Part shown: positions 1,670 through 8,971 of the stretch, piece after piece
Numbering within the stretch: the stretch's first letter is position 1
Layout: each line of letters opens with the position of its first letter
IMG/VR virus record: IMGVR_UViG_3300000357_000164
DNA: 10,359 bases
Reading direction: 5' to 3' (one strand)
DNA from: a virus
Taxonomy: Duplodnaviria; Heunggongvirae; Uroviricota; Caudoviricetes
Made by a program: the position numbers and the translations under genes
Notes under the pieces: model-generated
Databases searched by the model: none
Told to the model about the DNA's origin: nothing
The model's input: only the letters and a program-made list of their open reading frames with translations

Positions 1670-2638
1670 CTAAATACGCACTTTAAGATAAGTCAGCCCC
1701 GGATGAAGCCAGTAAGCCGGCACTTTTTTAAAGGGTGGAGTATTAAAATCACGAAGAAGAGCCTCCCGCACAATTGCATCCTTATCAGCACCACTGGCCA
1801 GCGCTTCAATCTCAGCGGCTACCTGAAGATATNNNNNNNNNNNNNNNNNNNNNNNNNNNNNNNNNNNNNNNNNNNNNNNNNNNNNNNNNNNNNNNNNNNN
1901 NNNNNNNNNNNNNNNNNNNNNNNNNNNNNNNNNNNNNNNNNNNNNNNNNNNNNNNNNNNNNNNNNNNNNNNNNNNNNNNNNNNNNNNNNNNNNNNNNNNN
2001 NNNNNNNNNNNNNNNNNNNNNNNNNNNNNNNNTGAGATGGTTATTTTCCCAGCATCACCGGATACAACAAAGGATGGCCGGTTACACTCCCATTCCGGGT
2101 CACTGAAATTATCATTATGAATACTGAAACACTCTGCGAGATTTCTGCTCATCACTTTCCGACAATAATCGTCAAACGCAGCAAACTGCTTTTCATCGCC
2201 AGAAGGCACCAATATCGACCATTTCTTATTCAGCTCAACGACGTAGCTCTCCAGTTTTTCAATACGTGATTCAACATCATCTTTTTCTGACCGCAGTGTT
2301 GACGGCGGCATCTTCAGAGAACAAGTAATTCTTCCCGGTAGCTTTCCTTTGTAGGTTATCAACACATCCTGCGCCTCTAAAATTACGGGGCGCTTTTCCG
2401 GCAACGGTTCGTTCCATTCACATAACCCGGCAGCAACATCCATGAAAAACTGCTTCGCCTGCTTTTTCGCCTCAGCTTCGTAAAACTCCAGCGTGGCACC
2501 TTCAGTACGGTCAAGACTAATCGCCACATCTGGCAACAACAGCGACGCTTGCCCGTCACCTTCCGACTTCACAGTAACAGTAACCTTATCCCCGTAATTA
2601 TTTATCCCCTTAACAACCAGTTCATATTTTTTATTCAT
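1670..2638 (-). CDS. hypothetical protein (~322 aa) inserted between holin and endolysin; no recognisable family from sequence alone
   Basis: Long minus-strand ORF starting at ATG 2638 (the track starts at the in-frame GTG 2641). An SD (GGGGAGAG) lies inside the 3' end of the holin gene, and the holin stop TAA (2643-2645) is 4 nt from this ATG. Soluble-looking protein with a coiled-coil-like stretch (RSEKDDVESRIEKLESYVVELNKKW). The interior 1833-2032 is masked (200 N), so continuity of the N-terminal 200 aa with the C-terminal 54 aa is unproven. Stop TAG at 1670-1672, 36 nt before the endolysin ATG. Confidence 0.6.
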   Translation of the reverse strand: MNKKYELVVKGINNYGDKVTVTVKSEGDGQASLLLPDVAISLDRTEGATLEFYEAEAKKQAKQFFMDVAAGLCEWNEPLPEKRPVILEAQDVLITYKGKLPGRITCSLKMPPSTLRSEKDDVESRIEKLESYVVELNKKWSILVPSGDEKQFAAFDDYCRKVMSRNLAECFSIHNDNFSDPEWECNRPSFVVSGDAGKITISXXXXXXXXXXXXXXXXXXXXXXXXXXXXXXXXXXXXXXXXXXXXXXXXXXXXXXXXXXXXXXXXXXXYLQVAAEIEALASGADKDAIVREALLRDFNTPPFKKVPAYWLHPGLTYLKVRI

Positions 2639-2642
2639 CACT

Positions 2643-3180: not shown

Positions 3181-3315
3181 GGGATTTTCTCGTTGAAAGG
3201 TGTTGTCAAGAAAGTGACTACGGAATNNNNNNNNNNNNNNNNNNNNNNNNNNNNNNNNNNNNNNNNNNNNNNNNNNNNNNNNNNNNNNNNNNNNNNNNNN
3301 NNNNNNNNNNNNNNN

Positions 3316-3615: not shown

Positions 3616-5745
3616 TCATGCCGCGATGTCCGCGTTGTTCACTTCCACCTTCACACTGTCAATCAGCAGCGTATATGTCGCCGCCTTTGATATGCCTGTC
3701 AGTTGCAGTTTGTCCGCCGCCCCTGATGCCGGAGATTTCACCAGTGTGAACGGCGTCCCCCGTTTCTCATCCAGTACCGGCGTCACCTGAATGCTGTTGT
3801 TTCCGGCAAACTCAAAAGCCAGTGTGTGCCATCCGTTATCAAAGACCCCGAACGTTTCCAGCTTCGCATTCGGCTTCTTGTGGTGCATCGCGTTCAGGTT
3901 CGTCGCATCCGTCTGCAGAAAGAAGGACATCAGCATGTCGTTGCCTTCCTCTGCCAGCGTCACTCCCTCNNNNNNNNNNNNNNNNNNNNNNNNNNNNNNN
4001 NNNNNNNNNNNNNNNNNNNNNNNNNNNNNNNNNNNNNNNNNNNNNNNNNNNNNNNNNNNNNNAACTGCCAGTAAATGCCCAGGGCAAACTGATTCGGCAC
4101 CAGTGAACCCGGCAACTTAAACCGTACGCTCACACGTCCCCCCTTCTTCAGTAACTCCACTCCCTGTCCGGCTGCATCATGCTCCAGAAACCAGATGTGG
4201 TTTTCCGGTTTATTCAGTTGCAGGGCCTTACCTCCCGTAGCCCCCGCATCACTGACCACCGCTTCAGCAATGTTTTTGTTAACATTGTCTCCGCTCGCCG
4301 GTTTGTGATAATAGCGCCAGCCCTGTGATGCCAGGTCTTCGCCGGACGCCAGCAGACTCATCAGGGTTCGGTTACTGACCGGGGCTTCCGGCTCTCTCTC
4401 CGTACCTTCACCGGAAGGTCCGGTGGGCTTCACCGTATCAGGCTGTTTTCCGGTAATGAATTCAGCGTTTCTCCCGGCATGCACAAGAATCGCCGTTGCC
4501 AGACGGTCGGAAATAATCCCACGACGTGCCCATGATCCAAAATGCGTTTTACGGTCAGCCGTCGTCCAGGTTTTGGCGTCCGTTCGACCACCGGCTCCGT
4601 AATACCCAATATCCGCAACATCCGGATCTTCTGACGGCTCGTTGGTACCCACATTTCGCCCGTTTTCATCCGTCATAAACGGCACAAAGAAGNNNNNNNN
4701 NNNNNNNNNNNNNNNNNNNNNNNNNNNNNNNNNNNNNNNNNNNNNNNNNNNNNNNNNNNNNNNNNNNNNNNNNNNNNNNNNNNNNNNNNNNTGCGGATTT
4801 CGTCTTGTATGCACCATACACCGCATCGTATTGCGAAGAATAAGTCTGCTTCCAGTAGTAGGTCGTGTCGCCACAAATCCAGGGAACCGATGACGGAGAG
4901 CCCCCGAGACACTGACCTCCGAATTCCGACAGGTCAGAACGATATTTTTCCACCATGGAATCAAACAGCCCCGGCTGGGTGGCGTATGCACCCTGTTTCA
5001 AATCAAACTCGCCCTGCATCCAGACCACTGCAAGCAGAATATTTTTAGGGTTGGCCTTCAGTGCGGCCTGAGTACGGGTAAGCAGGTCCTTGTACAGTGG
5101 CTTATCTACACCCCAGCGTGCCGAGGTCTCGCTTGCGCCGGTGGATTCGCTGAAGGTACCTTCATCGCCCGCCAAAAATGCAGAACCACCACGGCAGCAC
5201 GGAACCAGAAGAATACCGGCATTCGCCGGAATAAACGGCAACAATTTCTTCGCGATATGTAATCCCTGCCCCACGCATCCATACTGAGCTGCACTGGCTT
5301 TCGGGTGTGAAAACTTACTCAAATCCTGAACATCATGCAGGCAGTGGTCCGCAGGAATAATGTCATTGTAGTTACAGAACGCACCACCCGGCGTGACAGT
5401 GCTGCGACGCGCCAGCTGTTTAATACGCGGGTCCGGACGGTCATATGTCTCCGGCAGCGGAAGCCCTTCACCATACGCCATACCGTTTGACTGCCCGGCC
5501 AGGGCAACAACAAAGTAATACTCCGGGTTGCTGGTGGTGCTGATAACTGCGCCTTCTCCATCCGACGGCTTCACCACCACAGGTGTGGTGACATCACCTT
5601 CCGCCGCAATGGCCTGCATCAGGGTATAAGGCGTGATGGCCACCGGACTGCCAAATGGCTGCCACCCCTCCTTCAGTTTTTGTGTCAGTCGTTTCGCAAG
5701 GTCTGACGGCGATGCCGCCCTGACAACATCATAGTGTTTAAATGC
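3616..5745 (-). CDS. nanS-p: NanS-p-type phage sialate 9-O-acetylesterase (SASA/DUF303 esterase domain with C-terminal lectin-like region), interrupted by masked blocks
   Basis: Large minus-strand coding region with the SASA esterase GQSN motif (VALAGQSNGMAYGEG) and surrounding similarity to prophage NanS-p/YjhS-like esterases as recalled. The N-terminal part (AFKHYDVVRAASPSDLAKRLTQKLKEGWQPFGSPVA) resembles the DUF1737 region. The start lies inside N block 5746-5849. The coding frame differs on each side of N blocks 4693-4791 and 3970-4062 (three track ORFs: 4666..5964, 3960..4991, 3616..3963). Stop TGA at 3616-3618. Confidence 0.8.
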
Positions 5746-6017
5746 NNNNNNNNNNNNNNNNNNNNNNNNNNNNNNNNNNNNNNNNNNNNNNNNNNNNNNN
5801 NNNNNNNNNNNNNNNNNNNNNNNNNNNNNNNNNNNNNNNNNNNNNNNNNATTCTTTAAAATACCTGACATGTAATACAGAAAAAACACAAAACCATACCT
5901 TAAATAAAAACCTCATCATCAAGCAGATATGCATGGATAAACTACAAGACGAGATATAAACCACCCTGCATTTAAATAAACAATAAACAACATCAGAAAA
6001 ATAATTCTGCTCTATGG

Positions 6018-6044
6018 TTTACATTCAAAAATATCATTTATACT
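6018..6044 (+). promoter_or_regulatory. sigma70-like promoter candidate (TTTACA-15 nt-TATACT) upstream of plus-strand small ORF
   Basis: -35-like TTTACA at 6018-6023 and -10-like TATACT at 6039-6044, in very AT-rich DNA about 40 nt upstream of ATG 6085. The spacer is 15 nt, which is short, so this is a hexamer match only. Confidence 0.35.
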
Positions 6045-6084
6045 TTTCAGAACATCACCAGCAAGACATAAACAAGGAAACTAA

Positions 6085-6245
6085 ATGAAGTGGATTGTGA
6101 TTGATACAGTTATCCAGCCATCATGCGGAATATCTTTTTCAGTCATATGGAGTAAAATAAAATTAATAATCTGGTATCAATCGGATGCTTTCTTACCTCC
6201 TGAAAGTATATTTACACTGACTCACACAGGTATCATGCTCAATAA
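6085..6245 (+). CDS. small hypothetical protein on the strand opposite the late operon (partial; runs into masked block)
   Basis: ATG at 6085 with SD AAGGA (6074-6078, 6-nt spacer). Translation [53 protein letters not shown]... continues into N block 6246-6336; the track ORF ends at 6348. AT-rich codon usage with 5 ATA codons in 53. Confidence 0.4.
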
Positions 6246-6475
6246 NNNNNNNNNNNNNNNNNNNNNNNNNNNNNNNNNNNNNNNNNNNNNNNNNNNNNNN
6301 NNNNNNNNNNNNNNNNNNNNNNNNNNNNNNNNNNNNTGCTACCTGTAACCATTTACAACGTAGCACCATTCAATAAAACATTCTGGAATTTAATCAAAAA
6401 CAGCCAGGAATGTCCTACAAATACAGATAACGTATTGAATGAATGCTTTAATAACCGTTGCACTCTGCAAATATG

Positions 6476-6509
6476 TCCTTATGGACTAAAACAACAAAGT
6501 CCATAAGGA
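6476..6509. repeat. perfect 12-bp inverted repeat with 10-nt spacer (hairpin or palindromic binding site)
   Basis: TCCTTATGGACT (6476-6487) and AGTCCATAAGGA (6498-6509) are exact reverse complements; spacer AAAACAACAA. No clean U-tract follows on either strand. Confidence 0.6.
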
Positions 6510-6521
6510 GTTTACTCACAT

Positions 6522-6562
6522 CTGACAAAATCAATATAAACAGCCCCTCCGGAGAGGGGCTG
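6522..6562 (-). terminator. rho-independent terminator for minus-strand transcription
   Basis: Perfect 9-bp GC-rich stem CAGCCCCTC (6541-6549) / GAGGGGCTG (6554-6562) with a 4-nt loop. On the minus strand the hairpin is followed by TTTATATTGATTTTG (complement of 6522-6540). Confidence 0.55.
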
Positions 6563-6883
6563 GAGAGTGGCGCTATGTGCCATTGCATGGTGCCGGGTGC
6601 CTCCCGGTGAATTCAGTACCAGCACCTGAATCCGCGATTATCCCATATACCTACTCGCTGATTGCCCCTCCGCACNNNNNNNNNNNNNNNNNNNNNNNNN
6701 NNNNNNNNNNNNNNNNNNNNNNNNNNNNNNNNNNNNNNNNNNNNNNNNNNNNNNNNNNNNNNNNNNNNNNNNNNNNNNNNNNNNNNNNNNNNNNNNNNNN
6801 NNNNNNNNCCCCGCAAACCAGACAACAGTCAACCGCCTGAATTGTGAAGTATTTAAAAATTTCTCCCGCTAACTGATACCCGG

Positions 6884-6970
6884 CTAACAGTCTGGCGTTT
6901 TCTTTTTCAGCAACGGGAAAGCAACAACCACCACACCCGCCACCAGCACACCGTCAGCCAGCACTGACAT
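6884..6970 (-). CDS. candidate 28-aa hydrophobic peptide (speculative)
   Basis: ATG at 6970 to TAG at 6884-6886 gives MSVLADGVLVAGVVVVAFPLLKKKTPDC, a Val/Gly-rich hydrophobic stretch followed by KKK. It lies in a locally GC-rich patch of the AT-rich island. Weak SD; too short for the ORF track. Confidence 0.2.
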   Translation of the reverse strand: MSVLADGVLVAGVVVVAFPLLKKKTPDC

Positions 6971-7050
6971 TATCCGGCTGCTGCAATGCCACTCACAAAA
7001 ACAGTAAGCAATCACTTTTTACCGTAACAAGTGATAATCCAGATATGTAT

Positions 7051-7404
7051 CTACCCCAGATGAGTAATCCGAAGTTCATCCATACCACAGGTACTGGCTA
7101 TTCTGTTGTACTCCTGAACAAGAGCAAATAATTCTGAATTAGCAACCATGAACTCATCGCAAACCCTCTGTATAGCATCACTATTCAGAATAATAACGTC
7201 TCTTCCCGAAAGACGATCAGGAGTACAGAACAAAACTGTCAAACGGCTGAAGGCCTTTGCTCGTCCTGCATTGACTATATCAATACGCTGCCTAAGGATG
7301 AAACACCCCGACGCCTCATCAATATTCACTCTACCCACACCATATGAATGATAAATATTTAATGCTGAAAAAACCATTAGACCGTATAACAAACACTCAA
7401 TCAA
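7051..7404 (-). CDS. hypothetical ORF (117 aa) in cargo island; possibly a gene remnant
   Basis: The track ORF starts at TTG 7404; the first in-frame ATG is at 7377. No convincing SD for either start. Translation ...GRVNIDEASGCFILRQRIDIVNAGRAKAFSRLTVLFCTPDRLSGRDVIILNSDAIQRVCDEFMVANSELFALVQEYNRIASTCG... matches nothing I recognise. Confidence 0.3.
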   Translation of the reverse strand: MIECLLYGLMVFSALNIYHSYGVGRVNIDEASGCFILRQRIDIVNAGRAKAFSRLTVLFCTPDRLSGRDVIILNSDAIQRVCDEFMVANSELFALVQEYNRIASTCGMDELRITHLG

Positions 7405-7517
7405 TACTTAACAGAACTTTTATTTTTGACAAACATAAAATATTTTCAACAATATCCTGAGCCAGGTATATTTCAGTATAAGGCTCTGCCGGAAGGAATC
7501 TGGAAGAATGAATATAG

Positions 7518-7591
7518 CGCGCTGTACTGGATTCGAACCAGTGACCGATTGCTTAGAAGGCAATTGCTCTGTCCGGCTGAGCTAACAACGC
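7518..7591 (-). tRNA. tRNA-Arg (anticodon UCU), phage-borne; 3' CCA not encoded
   Basis: Minus-strand sequence GCGTTGTTAGCTCAGCCGGACAGAGCAATTGCCTTCTAAGCAATCGGTCACTGGTTCGAATCCAGTACAGCGCG folds as a cloverleaf: 7-bp acceptor stem with one G-U, D arm GCTC/GAGC, anticodon loop CTTCTAA, T arm with GGTTCGAATCC. It resembles E. coli argU-type tRNA. The discriminator is followed by CTA rather than CCA. Confidence 0.85.
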
Positions 7592-7691
7592 TGAATACCG
7601 ATAATGGACCGCCATCGGGGACCCGCCCCCGCACCAACAACCCTGTTATCGTGTCGTCTGCTCTTCCTGATAAGCTAATGGCGGTTTGTGA

Positions 7692-7767
7692 TGGTGGCCC
7701 TTGCTGGATTTGAACCAGCGACCTGGCGATTATGAGTCGCTCGCTCTCACCACTGAGCTAAAGGGCC
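7692..7767 (-). tRNA. tRNA-Ile2-like (anticodon CAU, ileX/ileZ-type; could formally be Met)
   Basis: Minus-strand sequence GGCCCTTTAGCTCAGTGGTGAGAGCGAGCGACTCATAATCGCCAGGTCGCTGGTTCAAATCCAGCAAGGGCCACCA (76 nt, CCA encoded) is near-identical in architecture to E. coli ileX tRNA as recalled. Anticodon loop CTCATAA. Confidence 0.88.
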
Positions 7768-7883
7768 GGGAGCAGAATAATAACNNNNNNNNNNNNNNNN
7801 NNNNNNNNNNNNNNNNNNNNNNNNNNNNNNNNNNNNNNNNNNNNNNNNNNNNNNNNNNNNNNNNNNNNNNNNNATTAATTCCG

Positions 7884-7909
7884 CAATAAAAAACCCGCTC
7901 GGCGGCGGG
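7884..7909 (-). terminator. tR'-like intrinsic terminator downstream of late promoter
   Basis: Minus-strand hairpin CCCGC-CGCCGA-GCGGG (7894-7909) followed by TTTTTTAT (complement of 7886-7893). It lies about 45-65 nt downstream of the pR'-like promoter, as for lambdoid pR'/tR' units. Confidence 0.7.
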
Positions 7910-7958
7910 TTGTAGAAACTCTTCTAACGTCAGGCATAAAAAGCCCATTGTTATGACG

Positions 7959-7986
7959 AATTTACCACAGATTCCGGAAAAATCAA
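7959..7986 (-). promoter_or_regulatory. pR'-like late promoter (putative Q-utilisation region)
   Basis: On the minus strand: -35 TTGATT (7981-7986), 16-nt spacer, -10 TAAATT (7959-7964). The -10 hexamer is the same as lambda pR' as recalled. Located immediately after the Q stop codon (7992-7994) and upstream of the tR'-like hairpin. Confidence 0.55.
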
Positions 7987-7991
7987 CCTTG

Positions 7992-8971
7992 TTACCTAGT
8001 TACCTTTTTTAACTGCCGCTCAGCCCATGCTTCTTCAATATCAAACCGGGTCACCAGCGCATCATAGAATTTCTTAACTGTTTTTTCCCATGACGCGCGT
8101 GTTATCTGGTTTGTCACCTCGCATATAGCATTAAATGCCTCCGTTGATGGTAGTCTTTCATAGCCACGACCACCACAACGCTGGCAGTCTCTGATAACAG
8201 GCATACCACGTTTTACCGACTCTTCACGATGAATGGCGACACCACGCCCACGGCAATCCTTACAGGCGGTGGAAACCTCACCCTTTCCGCCACACTCNNN
8301 NNNNNNNNNNNNNNNNNNNNNNNNNNNNNNNNNNNNNNNNNNNNNNNNNNNNNNNNNNNNNNNNNNNNNNNNNNNNNNNNNNNNNNNNNNNNNNNNNNNN
8401 NNNNNNNNNNNNNNNNNNNNNNNNNNNAAGACGAATACACACCTTTCGTACACTTTGCCCATACCGGCGGCTTACCATCCGGATACTGGACCTTGTTTGT
8501 AAAAACTACGCTTTCAATAAATTTTTCCCCATAGCAACAAGGGCACTGCTTTTTACTCGCTGCGCTGCGGGCATAATCCTCAAAAGCGTACGAAGCCATA
8601 ATGCGCATCACTACCGGTTTTATTTCTGCCGGAAGTTTTCTCAACGCCGCCACANNNNNNNNNNNNNNNNNNNNNNNNNNNNNNNNNNNNNNNNNNNNNN
8701 NNNNNNNNNNNNNNNNNNNNNNNNNNNNNNNNNNNNNNNNNNNNNNNNNNNNNNNNNNNNNNNNNNNNNNNGTTGCCCGCGCCCTGTCATTCATACTGAT
8801 GCCCATTTTCCCCAGGAACGCAGAAAAACCCATCTCAGCCCGATTCTGTGTCATGCCCTGCGCGGCCATCACATCAGTGATACTCAGCGCATCTTTTGAC
8901 GTTGAGGCCGATGCATCGGTCAGGCCAGGGGATTTTGGGGAGTAGTATTTCGGTAAATCTTCCAGTTTCAT
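7992..8971 (-). CDS. Q: late-gene antiterminator Q (lambda Q family), interrupted by two masked blocks with an apparent frame change
   Basis: N-terminus MKLEDLPKYYSPKSPGLTDASASTSKDALSITDVMAAQGMTQNRAEMGFSAFLGK parallels lambda Q (MRLESVAKFHSPKSPMMSDSPRATASDSLSGTDVMAAMGMAQSQ...). Mid-region MASYAFEDYARSAASKKQ matches LATFAYADYCRSAATPGA. The C-terminal part in a different frame (7992..8297: CKDCRGRGVAI...DCQRCGGRGYERLPS...WEKTVKKFYDALV...KKVTR) matches the lambda Q zinc-finger and C-terminus. ATG at 8971 with an AGG-containing SD. Confidence 0.8.

What the first reader, a model, noticed from the sequence alone, without database searches (positions are those of the whole stretch)
5850..7517. AT-rich cargo island at the position occupied by stxAB in Stx phages
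The backbone order Q, pR'/tR', tRNA-Ile, tRNA-Arg, then cargo, then nanS-p, S, R, Rz is that of Stx-converting phages, but the cargo slot contains no stx-like coding sequence. Instead it holds visibly AT-rich DNA with an orphan 117-aa ORF lacking a good start, a possible 28-aa hydrophobic peptide, a minus-strand terminator, a perfect palindrome, a plus-strand promoter+SD+ORF unit, and two masked blocks. This slot is a known moron hotspot, so the content may be an uncharacterised lysogenic-conversion or defence module.
Basis: partly seen in the sequence, partly recalled or inferred. Interest (0 to 1): 0.72.

Follow-up and report, generated by a model that had tools for sequence, protein, structure and literature searches.

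The report
Prophage iraL locus in stx slot
The AT-rich "cargo island" is the already described iraL locus of a common E. coli lambdoid prophage, whose gene makes a small protein that protects the stress sigma factor RpoS from degradation, so it is real but ordinary.

Summary
Window 5850-7516 sits between tRNA-Arg and the sialate-esterase gene of a lambdoid prophage, has no stx, and is 39% GC against 51-52% in the flanks.

It is not uncharacterised. The plus-strand promoter+SD+ORF unit is iraL. The product is 111 aa, 99% identical to IraL of uropathogenic E. coli CFT073 and 62% identical to K-12 IraM. The -35 and -10 hexamers match CFT073, and the 5'-RACE-mapped start falls at window 6052. IraL is a published RssB anti-adaptor that stabilises RpoS in log phase (Hryckowian 2014).

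The N blocks are inflated: 91 N stand for 5 nt and 133 N for 36 nt, so the ORF is intact.

The rest of the island is also made of known families:
- An STnc100-family sRNA (Rfam RF02076, 132 bits) on the phage strand. The "minus-strand terminator" belongs to it.
- A 92-aa GTG-start gene (phrog_2873) inside the "orphan 117-aa ORF". It is under purifying selection and of unknown function.

No defence-system model matches. iraL with its promoter occurs in 1,446 of 5,426 complete E. coli genomes.

One small new point: iraL sits where EHEC Stx phages carry the anti-sRNA AgvB/AsxR, convergent with STnc100.

Verdict: already known, low interest.

The parts
5850..6017 (+). A/T-rich region upstream of the iraL promoter (28.6% GC with the promoter). 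It lies between the esterase start codon, which is hidden in mask 5746-5849, and the -35 hexamer.
   Evidence: Composition. The stretch is 98-99% identical to the CFT073 iraL upstream region. The paper reports that this regulatory region is at least 96% conserved among iraL+ strains.
6018..6052 (+). iraL sigma-70 promoter: -35 TTTACA (6018-6023), 17-nt spacer, -10 TACTTT (6041-6046), transcription start at 6052 (ACATCACCAGCAAG...).
   Evidence: The hexamers are identical to CFT073. The 5'-RACE start ACATCACCAGCAAGGCATAAACAAGGAAACCA comes from PMC4045071, with 2 mismatches here downstream of +1.
6085..6506 (+). iraL coding sequence: 111 codons and 336 nt in reality, because mask 6246-6336 stands for only 5 nt. 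SD AAGGA at 6074-6078. The product is the RssB anti-adaptor IraL.
   Evidence: NCBIfam NF007393 scores 162 bits against a cut-off of 121. The protein is 99% identical to CFT073 IraL and 62% identical to K-12 IraM. PGAP names it 'anti-adapter protein IraM', WP_001336019.1. PDB 8twd (IraM) matches at E 2e-32. omega against iraM is 0.18.
6476..6509 (+). Perfect palindrome with 12-bp arms and a 10-nt loop, spanning the last iraL codons and the stop. It is followed by GTTTACT and is the probable iraL 3' hairpin, possibly a weak terminator.
   Evidence: Inverted repeat I1. It forms in the minimum-free-energy fold; the folded segment has a z-score of -6.1. Termination is inferred, not shown.
6532..6818 (-). 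STnc100-family sRNA gene, 190 nt in reality, because mask 6676-6808 stands for 36 nt. It ends in a GC-rich intrinsic terminator at 6541-6562 and is convergent with iraL.
   Evidence: Rfam RF02076 scores 132.4 bits against a gathering score of 47, over the full model length. Terminator scan. The same family sits in the same place in CFT073, the Stx1 phage 75/02, mEp460_ev081 and others. PGAP's plus-strand 'partial hypothetical protein' is antisense to it.
6884..7015 (-). DUF3927 small hydrophobic protein, 43 aa with a GTG start.
   Evidence: Pfam PF13064 at E 1.7e-27. phrog_1470 'TciB-like' at E 8e-13. PGAP WP_000562553.1.
7051..7329 (-). 92-aa GTG-start gene of unknown function, a predicted helical hairpin. 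PGAP does not annotate it.
   Evidence: phrog_2873 at E 7e-70. Homologues of 54-60% identity start at the same GTG. omega is 0.27 in frame against 0.8-1.2 in the shifted frames. The AF2 model has pLDDT 86 and two long helices.
7330..7516 (.). AT-rich spacer between tRNA-Arg and the 92-aa gene.
   Evidence: The 140 nt next to tRNA-Arg (L001 7346-7485, window 7378-7517) are 32% GC. There are promoter-like hexamers on both strands, but no more than the shuffles give.
7517..7591 (-). tRNA-Arg (TCT), the upstream border of the cargo slot.
   Evidence: ARAGORN and Rfam.

Best explanation
The island is the iraL locus of a widespread UPEC/ExPEC-type lambdoid prophage. It is a mosaic of two modules in the moron slot downstream of Q, tR' and the tRNAs.

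Module 1 is tRNA-proximal and on the late-gene strand. It carries a 92-aa helical-hairpin gene, the DUF3927 membrane peptide and an STnc100-family sRNA with its terminator.

Module 2 is esterase-proximal and on the opposite strand. It is iraL with its own sigma-70 promoter and a 3' hairpin.

iraL points against late transcription and has its own promoter. It is therefore expressed from the silent prophage, independently of Q and of induction, unlike stx. IraL binds the adaptor RssB and stops it from handing RpoS to ClpXP. This raises RpoS levels during exponential growth and with them general stress resistance.

Shown here: identity of the gene, promoter and genomic context. Shown in the literature for the 99%-identical CFT073 protein: RssB binding and RpoS stabilisation. 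Inferred: that this copy is expressed and acts the same way. The roles of the sRNA and of the two small proteins remain unknown.
For: - The whole island is 98-99% identical to the CFT073 iraL locus and has the same gene order.
- The protein differs from CFT073 IraL by one residue (A65V).
- The NCBIfam IraM model is passed at 162 bits against a cut-off of 121.
- The -35 and -10 hexamers are identical, and the mapped TSS sequence is present.
- The IraM residues that contact RssB (C14, F18, W30, I61, Y62) are conserved.
- omega is 0.18 against iraM.
- The published function of IraL is in PMC4045071. It is echoed in PMC7157518 and PMC12890032.
- Modularity: Stx1 phage 75/02 and mEp460_ev081 share the sRNA side but lack the 673-bp iraL segment, with the junction at L001 6648/6649.
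- The iraL module is 33.5% GC against 51-52% for the backbone.
Against: - Nothing about expression or RssB binding was measured for this copy.
- The + strand has no canonical U-tract terminator after iraL, so the transcript's 3' end is unknown.
- Contact residues T13, H63 and I64 of IraM are S, N and V here. The paper also says IraL contacts RssB differently from IraM.
- By analogy with iraM, such AT-rich DNA may be H-NS-silenced under many conditions. This rests on my own knowledge and was not tested.
Confidence: 0.9

Rival explanations
1. The island is a decaying remnant without function, made of leftover fragments after loss of stx or another moron.
For: - PGAP marks a partial 'hypothetical protein' pseudogene in the middle and leaves the 117-aa ORF unannotated.
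- The neighbouring YdfR-like gene is flagged as a pseudogene in MCJCHV-1, and so is the esterase.
Against: - iraL is intact with a conserved promoter, and omega is 0.18.
- The 'pseudogene' is the antisense strand of a full-length STnc100 match.
- The 92-aa ORF shows frame-specific purifying selection, omega 0.27.
- The island is kept at 95% identity or more in hundreds of genomes.
Confidence: 0.04
2. The island is an anti-phage defence or superinfection-exclusion module, as is common in prophage moron hotspots.
For: - The location is a known hotspot.
- Small membrane peptides such as DUF3927 and small helical proteins are sometimes exclusion factors (general knowledge).
- phrog_1470 is labelled 'TciB-like inhibition of cell division or resistance to colicin'.
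Against: - No PADLOC model matches any ORF. The best hit has E 0.05 and 10 bits, which is noise.
- The main gene has a different, demonstrated function.
- The 92-aa protein has no informative fold match.
Confidence: 0.05
3. The functionally dominant element is the STnc100-family sRNA. It would be made from the late or DUF3927 transcript, with iraL as a passenger. Alternatively the two convergent genes regulate each other by transcriptional interference or antisense overlap.
For: - The sRNA is the one element shared by every variant of the slot examined.
- Tree 2014 found abundant Hfq-bound convergent sRNA pairs at this place.
- The iraL 3' hairpin lacks a strong U-tract, so read-through into the antisense of the sRNA is possible.
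- The module junction lies inside the sRNA.
Against: - No target or phenotype is known for STnc100 or PasD.
- No promoter was found directly upstream of the Rfam 5' end (my reading of the sequence).
- Two separate hairpins lie 31 nt apart, which suggests each transcript ends before the other gene.
Confidence: 0.1

Closest known systems
iraL of E. coli CFT073 (c1429), potB-island prophage; Hryckowian et al. 2014, mBio 5:e01043-14
   Same: - Same gene: 1 aa difference, 4 nt differences in 336.
- Same promoter hexamers and TSS sequence.
- Same neighbours (DUF3927, STnc100, 92-aa ORF, tRNA-Arg).
- Same orientation against late genes.
   Different: - CFT073 has three tRNAs plus an IS200 between Q and the tRNAs.
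- In CFT073 only a DUF1737 stub of the esterase remains downstream. Here there are two tRNAs and a full-length esterase.
iraM (ycgW) of E. coli K-12, beside prophage e14; PhoP-controlled RssB anti-adaptor; structure with RssB PDB 8twd
   Same: - Same protein family (NF007393).
- 62% identity.
- Conserved core and several conserved RssB-contact residues.
   Different: - Different locus.
- DNA similarity is confined to the CDS at 71.5%, so the promoter and its regulation are unrelated.
- IraL has a 4-residue C-terminal extension created by the palindrome.
- IraL acts in log phase and binds RssB differently.
stxAB moron of Stx-converting phages (e.g. Shigella phage 75/02, 933W type)
   Same: - Same slot: Q, tR', tRNAs, cargo, STnc100-family sRNA, esterase, holin.
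- The cargo is foreign, with composition unlike the backbone.
   Different: - stx is co-directional with late genes and Q-dependent.
- iraL is antisense, has its own promoter, and lies on the esterase side of the sRNA rather than the tRNA side.
Convergent prophage sRNA pairs with anti-sRNAs AgvB/AsxR (Tree et al. 2014, Mol Cell 55:199)
   Same: - Same sub-slot and same convergent geometry with the sense sRNA.
- In phage 75/02 an AgvB-like RNA (RF02702, 56.6 bits) sits where iraL sits here.
   Different: - Here the antisense partner is a 111-codon protein gene, not a 51-60-nt sRNA.
- There is no AgvB or AsxR match in the window at E<=1.
STnc100 / PasD prophage sRNA family (Rfam RF02076; Zhu, Shabalina and Storz, bioRxiv 2026)
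   Same: - Full-length covariance-model match.
- Position just upstream of the sialate esterase gene.
   Different: - Function and targets are unknown.
- In this locus its last ~50 nt, terminator included, lie on the iraL-module side of the recombination junction.

Membership tests
IraM/IraL/RssC RssB anti-adaptor family | Sequence passes the curated family model (NCBIfam NF007393) | tested here: met
   162.4 bits against a cut-off of 121, residues 1-110 of 111.
iraL (as opposed to iraM) | At least 95% identity to CFT073 iraL over the whole coding region, the criterion used in PMC4045071 | tested here: met
   99% aa identity and 4 nt differences in 336. Only 62% aa and 71.5% nt identity to K-12 iraM.
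iraL (as opposed to iraM) | Conserved sigma-70 promoter and mapped transcription start | tested here: met
   -35 TTTACA and -10 TACTTT are identical to CFT073. The RACE-mapped 5' sequence is present at window 6052 with 2 mismatches.
IraM/IraL/RssC RssB anti-adaptor family | Binds RssB and stabilises RpoS against ClpXP | not testable with these tools
   Shown for CFT073 IraL in PMC4045071. Here only the conservation of contact residues C14, F18, W30, I61 and Y62 could be checked.
STnc100 sRNA (Rfam RF02076) | Covariance-model score above the gathering threshold over the full model | tested here: met
   132.4 bits against 47, model positions 1-206.
STnc100 sRNA (Rfam RF02076) | Ends in a Rho-independent terminator on the same strand | tested here: met
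   9-bp stem with 7 GC pairs, followed by TTTATATT. It forms in the minimum-free-energy fold.
STnc100 sRNA (Rfam RF02076) | Expressed as a discrete, Hfq-associated RNA | not testable with these tools
   Only the literature on relatives is available.
Stx-converting phage cargo | Backbone order Q, tR', tRNAs, cargo, esterase, holin, lysozyme, Rz | tested here: met
   Compared with phage 75/02.
Stx-converting phage cargo | stxA and stxB genes present | tested here: not met
   No stx-like ORF or family hit. BLAST matches to Stx phages cover only the sRNA stretch.
DUF3927 (PF13064) | Pfam model above the gathering score | tested here: met
   95.6 bits against 25.
Known anti-phage defence systems (PADLOC-DB 2.0) | Any ORF of the island matches a defence-protein model | tested here: not met
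   No match better than E 0.05 and 10 bits.
AgvB/AsxR anti-sRNAs (RF02702/RF02703) | Covariance-model match in the sub-slot between the sense sRNA and the esterase | tested here: not met
   No match at E<=1 in L001 5900-7950. The method does detect an AgvB-like RNA in phage 75/02.

The most novel reading that the evidence does not exclude
The sub-slot between the STnc100-family sRNA and the esterase gene would be a dedicated exchange site for host-rewiring regulators that are antisense to late transcription. Anti-sRNAs (AgvB, AsxR) occupy it in EHEC phages and the protein anti-adaptor iraL occupies it in ExPEC prophages. Exchange would occur by recombination inside the sRNA. In addition, iraL and the convergent sRNA would be functionally coupled through overlapping 3' ends or interference, tying RpoS stabilisation to prophage state. 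Separately, the unannotated 92-aa helical-hairpin protein would be a new prophage regulator, since its homologues follow AraC-like regulators in other prophages.
Probability: 0.12. Interest if true: 0.4.

Novelty: already known. Interest (0 to 1): 0.12.

Why it matters
It matters little as a discovery. iraL, its promoter, its distribution and its mechanism were published in 2014. The sRNA, DUF3927 and the phrog_2873 ORF all belong to catalogued families.

The useful results are corrections:
- The "uncharacterised cargo" is a known RpoS-stabilising lysogenic-conversion gene carried by about a quarter of complete E. coli genomes.
- PGAP's "partial hypothetical protein" in the middle is the antisense of an sRNA.
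- An unannotated 92-aa gene under purifying selection sits next to the tRNA.
- iraL takes the place that anti-sRNAs hold in Stx phages.

The last point gives a tidy picture of how one prophage slot delivers different host-regulatory cargo to different pathotypes.

Tried and rejected
- **Defence module.** PADLOC on five ORFs gave nothing.
- **Function of the 92-aa protein by fold.** The AF2 model is confident (pLDDT 86), but Foldseek against the PDB gave only generic helical hairpins, best E 0.26. The profile search of 1.84 billion representatives found only 20 small relatives without annotation. tblastn against 50,697 phage records found one record.
- **GcvB-sponge site in the iraL 3' hairpin.** The CA-rich loop (AAAACAACAAAG) might have echoed AgvB. 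The RNAduplex energy against K-12 GcvB was matched or beaten by 14% of shuffles, so the idea was dropped. An earlier version of the script timed out.
- **AgvB/AsxR in the window.** No Rfam match at E<=1.
- **DUF3927 dN/dS against the second copy in L007.** The ORF I picked there was not the homologue, so the result is meaningless and is not used.
- **Promoter for the sRNA.** The consensus scan found no site next to its 5' end. Promoter-like sites in the region are no more frequent than in shuffles, 6 against 4.4 +/- 2.3.
- **Weak Rfam hits.** Trp_leader, Plastid-ycf2 and SNORD103 fall below their gathering scores and lie over tRNA or terminator structures. I treated them as chance.
Full report
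**Layout of the window.** The phage genes run on the minus strand. From high to low coordinates they are:
- DUF968 and RusA genes
- a Q-type antiterminator (7992-8971)
- a tR'-like intrinsic terminator (7892-7911)
- tRNA with anticodon CAT (7692-7767; ARAGORN says Met, PGAP annotates the identical gene as Ile, i.e. the lysidine-type Ile2)
- tRNA-Arg TCT (7517-7591)
- the region in question
- a large sialate-esterase-like gene, then DUF1378, DUF826, a class II holin, a YdfR/DUF1327-like gene, lysozyme and Rz/Rz1

The backbone reading of the first stage is correct.

**The masks are inflated.** The window is 100% identical outside the N blocks to many E. coli chromosomes, for example strain MCJCHV-1 (NZ_CP030111.1, fetched as L001). 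Aligning the two shows that each N block is much longer than the sequence it replaces. 6246-6336 (91 N) stands for 5 nt, 6676-6808 (133 N) for 36 nt and 5746-5849 (104 N) for 28 nt. All later analysis used L001. Coordinates were mapped back as follows:
- L001 6001-6396 = window 5850-6245
- L001 6402-6740 = window 6337-6675
- L001 6777-7752 = window 6809-7784

**Composition.** Between the esterase start and tRNA-Arg the true length is 1,495 bp at 39.2% GC. The flanks are 52.0% (esterase to Rz) and 51.1% (tRNAs to DUF968). It is the lowest 1,495-bp window of the 13.5-kb locus. The deficit is concentrated in three parts:
- the iraL upstream region, 28.6%
- the iraL CDS, 34.2%
- the spacer next to tRNA-Arg, 32.1%

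The sRNA and DUF3927 part is about 51%. The island is compositionally foreign, but it is a mosaic.

**The plus-strand unit is iraL.**
- With the mask collapsed, the ORF starting at 6085 is a single 111-codon gene ending at 6506. PGAP annotates it as "anti-adapter protein IraM".
- It passes NCBIfam NF007393 at 162 bits against a cut-off of 121. It matches the crystallised IraM (PDB 8twd) at E 2e-32.
- CFT073 carries its iraL (c1429) in the prophage at potB. I fetched that region. The order there is Q, IS200, tRNA-Ile, tRNA-Arg, tRNA-Arg, DUF3927, a "partial hypothetical", iraL on the opposite strand, a DUF1737 stub and holin.
- The proteins differ by one residue (A65V), and K-12 IraM is 62% identical.
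- The 1.6-kb island aligns end to end with CFT073 at 98-99% identity.
- Hryckowian et al. (PMC4045071) mapped the iraL 5' end by RACE as ACATCACCAGCAAGGCATAAACAAGGAAACCA. The window has this sequence at 6052 with two substitutions. It is preceded by the same -10 (TACTTT, 6041-6046) and -35 (TTTACA, 6018-6023) as CFT073.
- The same paper shows that IraL raises RpoS level and stability in log phase and binds RssB. It also shows that iraL is frequent in UPEC and Shigella and absent from laboratory strains.
- Later papers report iraL induction in a fur mutant and on a shift to 37 °C.
- The IraM-RssB structure paper lists contact residues. C14, F18, W30, I61 and Y62 are identical in this protein, while T13, H63 and I64 are S, N and V.
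- iraL against iraM gives omega 0.18.
- iraL with its promoter is found at 90% identity or more in 1,446 of 5,426 complete E. coli genomes. The whole island is found at 80% coverage or more in 861.

**The "minus-strand terminator" belongs to an sRNA.** Rfam finds a full-length STnc100 (RF02076) match at L001 6597-6786 on the minus strand, which is window 6532-6818. The score is 132 bits against a gathering score of 47. It ends in the 9-bp GC-rich hairpin plus T-run at window 6541-6562. PGAP's plus-strand "partial hypothetical protein" is simply its antisense.

The same family occupies the same place in every slot variant I fetched:
- CFT073
- mEp460_ev081
- vB_EcoS-640R1, which has two copies
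- two metagenomic or assembly contigs
- Stx1 phage 75/02

In phage 75/02 it lies just downstream of stx1B. The literature places STnc100 75 nt downstream of stx2 in STEC. It also relates STnc100 to the PasD sRNAs found next to sialate-esterase genes, whose function is unknown.

**Two modules, and what iraL replaces.** Stx1 phage 75/02 and mEp460_ev081 match the island only from L001 6649 upward, which is the sRNA body and beyond. Phage 75/02 also matches the esterase start. The 673-bp iraL segment (L001 5976-6648) is absent from both. The junction lies inside the sRNA, about 50 nt from its 3' end.

In phage 75/02 the corresponding 260-bp interval holds an AgvB-like RNA (RF02702, 56.6 bits) on the opposite strand, convergent with STnc100. 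[quoted passage not shown] 2014. The window has no AgvB or AsxR match. iraL therefore sits in the place of the anti-sRNA.

I did not find this positional equivalence in the papers I read. It is an observation about architecture, not a new mechanism.

**iraL 3' end.** A perfect palindrome with 12-bp arms (window 6476-6509) covers the last codons and the stop, and it creates the four extra C-terminal residues relative to IraM. It folds stably but is followed by only a weak U-run. The GC-rich hairpin 31 nt further on has its U-tract on the other strand. Whether iraL transcripts stop before the sRNA gene is open.

**The small ORFs.**
- The 43-aa GTG ORF at 6884-7015(-) is DUF3927 (PF13064, E 2e-27; phrog_1470 "TciB-like").
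- The 117-aa TTG ORF matches phrog_2873 (E 7e-70) from residue 10.
- Homologues of 54-60% identity exist in E. coli and Shigella. The shortest widespread form is 92 aa, and both clades have GTG at that start.
- Between clades omega is 0.27 in this frame, against 1.17 and 0.82 in the two shifted frames. It is a real gene, most likely at window 7051-7329(-).
- AlphaFold gives a confident helical hairpin (pLDDT 86). It has no informative structural neighbour and only 20 representative relatives in 1.84 billion proteins.
- In other prophages the diverged form follows an AraC-like regulator gene in the same Q-to-DUF1737 interval. Function is unknown.

**Mechanism, with shown and inferred steps.**
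- Shown here: gene identity, intactness, promoter conservation, orientation against late transcription, foreign composition and modular insertion.
- Shown in the literature for the near-identical CFT073 gene: sigma-70-type start, RssB binding and RpoS stabilisation in log phase.
- Inferred: this copy behaves the same. Its expression does not depend on Q or on induction. It acts as a lysogenic-conversion factor raising general stress resistance.
- Rivals: decay remnant, defence module, or an sRNA-centred unit. These are weakly supported or contradicted.

**Verdict.** This is the known iraL locus. Interest is low.

Noticed in passing
window N blocks: 1833-2032, 3227-3315, 3970-4062, 4693-4791, 5746-5849, 6246-6336, 6676-6808, 7785-7873 and others: Every N run is much longer than the sequence it replaces in identical genomes. 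For example 91 N stand for 5 nt, 133 N for 36 nt, 200 N for 122 nt and 89 N for 8 nt. Reading frames and distances across masks cannot be taken from the window.
   Followed up: yes
window 1670-2641 (-); L001 2226-3119: A 297-aa ORF lies between the holin and the lysozyme. Residues 2-101 are DUF1327/YdfR (PF07041, E 1e-40), and about 195 further residues have no Pfam match. PGAP annotates only a truncated YdfR pseudogene here. It may be a fusion or an unrecognised cargo gene in a second moron site.
   Followed up: partly
window 4063-4692 against L001 4382-5010: The esterase (DUF6645/nanS-p-like) reading frame continues in the window past the point where it stops in MCJCHV-1. In MCJCHV-1 a 1-nt indel gives a stop after ...LLKKGDV, and PGAP flags the gene as frameshifted. 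The window comes from a close relative, not from that strain.
   Followed up: partly
window 7592-7691: About 100 nt with no detectable tRNA separate tRNA-Ile2 and tRNA-Arg. CFT073 has Ile, Arg, Arg with spacers of 7-13 nt. The middle argN-type tRNA seems to be lost or replaced here.
   Followed up: no
L005 (Shigella phage 75/02 Stx) 3885-3944 (+) and 3940-4138 (-): An AgvB-like RNA just reaches its Rfam threshold, at 56.6 bits against 56. It is convergent with STnc100 directly downstream of stx1B, in the position that iraL holds in the window.
   Followed up: partly
L007 (phage vB_EcoS-640R1) 4597-4785 (-) and 5061-5254 (-): Two STnc100-family copies, about 78% identical to each other, lie in one slot. 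One is next to iraL and one is nearer the tRNA. This fits recombination within the sRNA as the way modules are stacked.
   Followed up: no
L008 2933-3658, L012 3969-4694 and similar places in L009-L013: In other prophages the diverged 92-aa homologue directly follows a 241-aa AraC-like regulator (PF12833). This may be one of the prophage Psr/PatE-type regulators of EHEC, from my recollection, which I did not check. L012 also carries a PemK toxin gene and an N6/N4 methyltransferase gene in the same Q-to-esterase interval.
   Followed up: no
window 7892-7991 (-), between the Q stop and tR': A short leader lies between Q and the tR'-like terminator. It is the equivalent of the lambda 6S / StxS short pR' transcript, from my own knowledge. 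It gives only a sub-threshold Trp_leader hit (24.6 bits, E 0.037), which I take as a generic terminator-leader resemblance.
   Followed up: no
L001 10578-10902 (outside the window, upstream of DUF968): A hokD/sok type I toxin-antitoxin pair lies in the same prophage. sok (RF01794) scores 106.7 bits.
   Followed up: no
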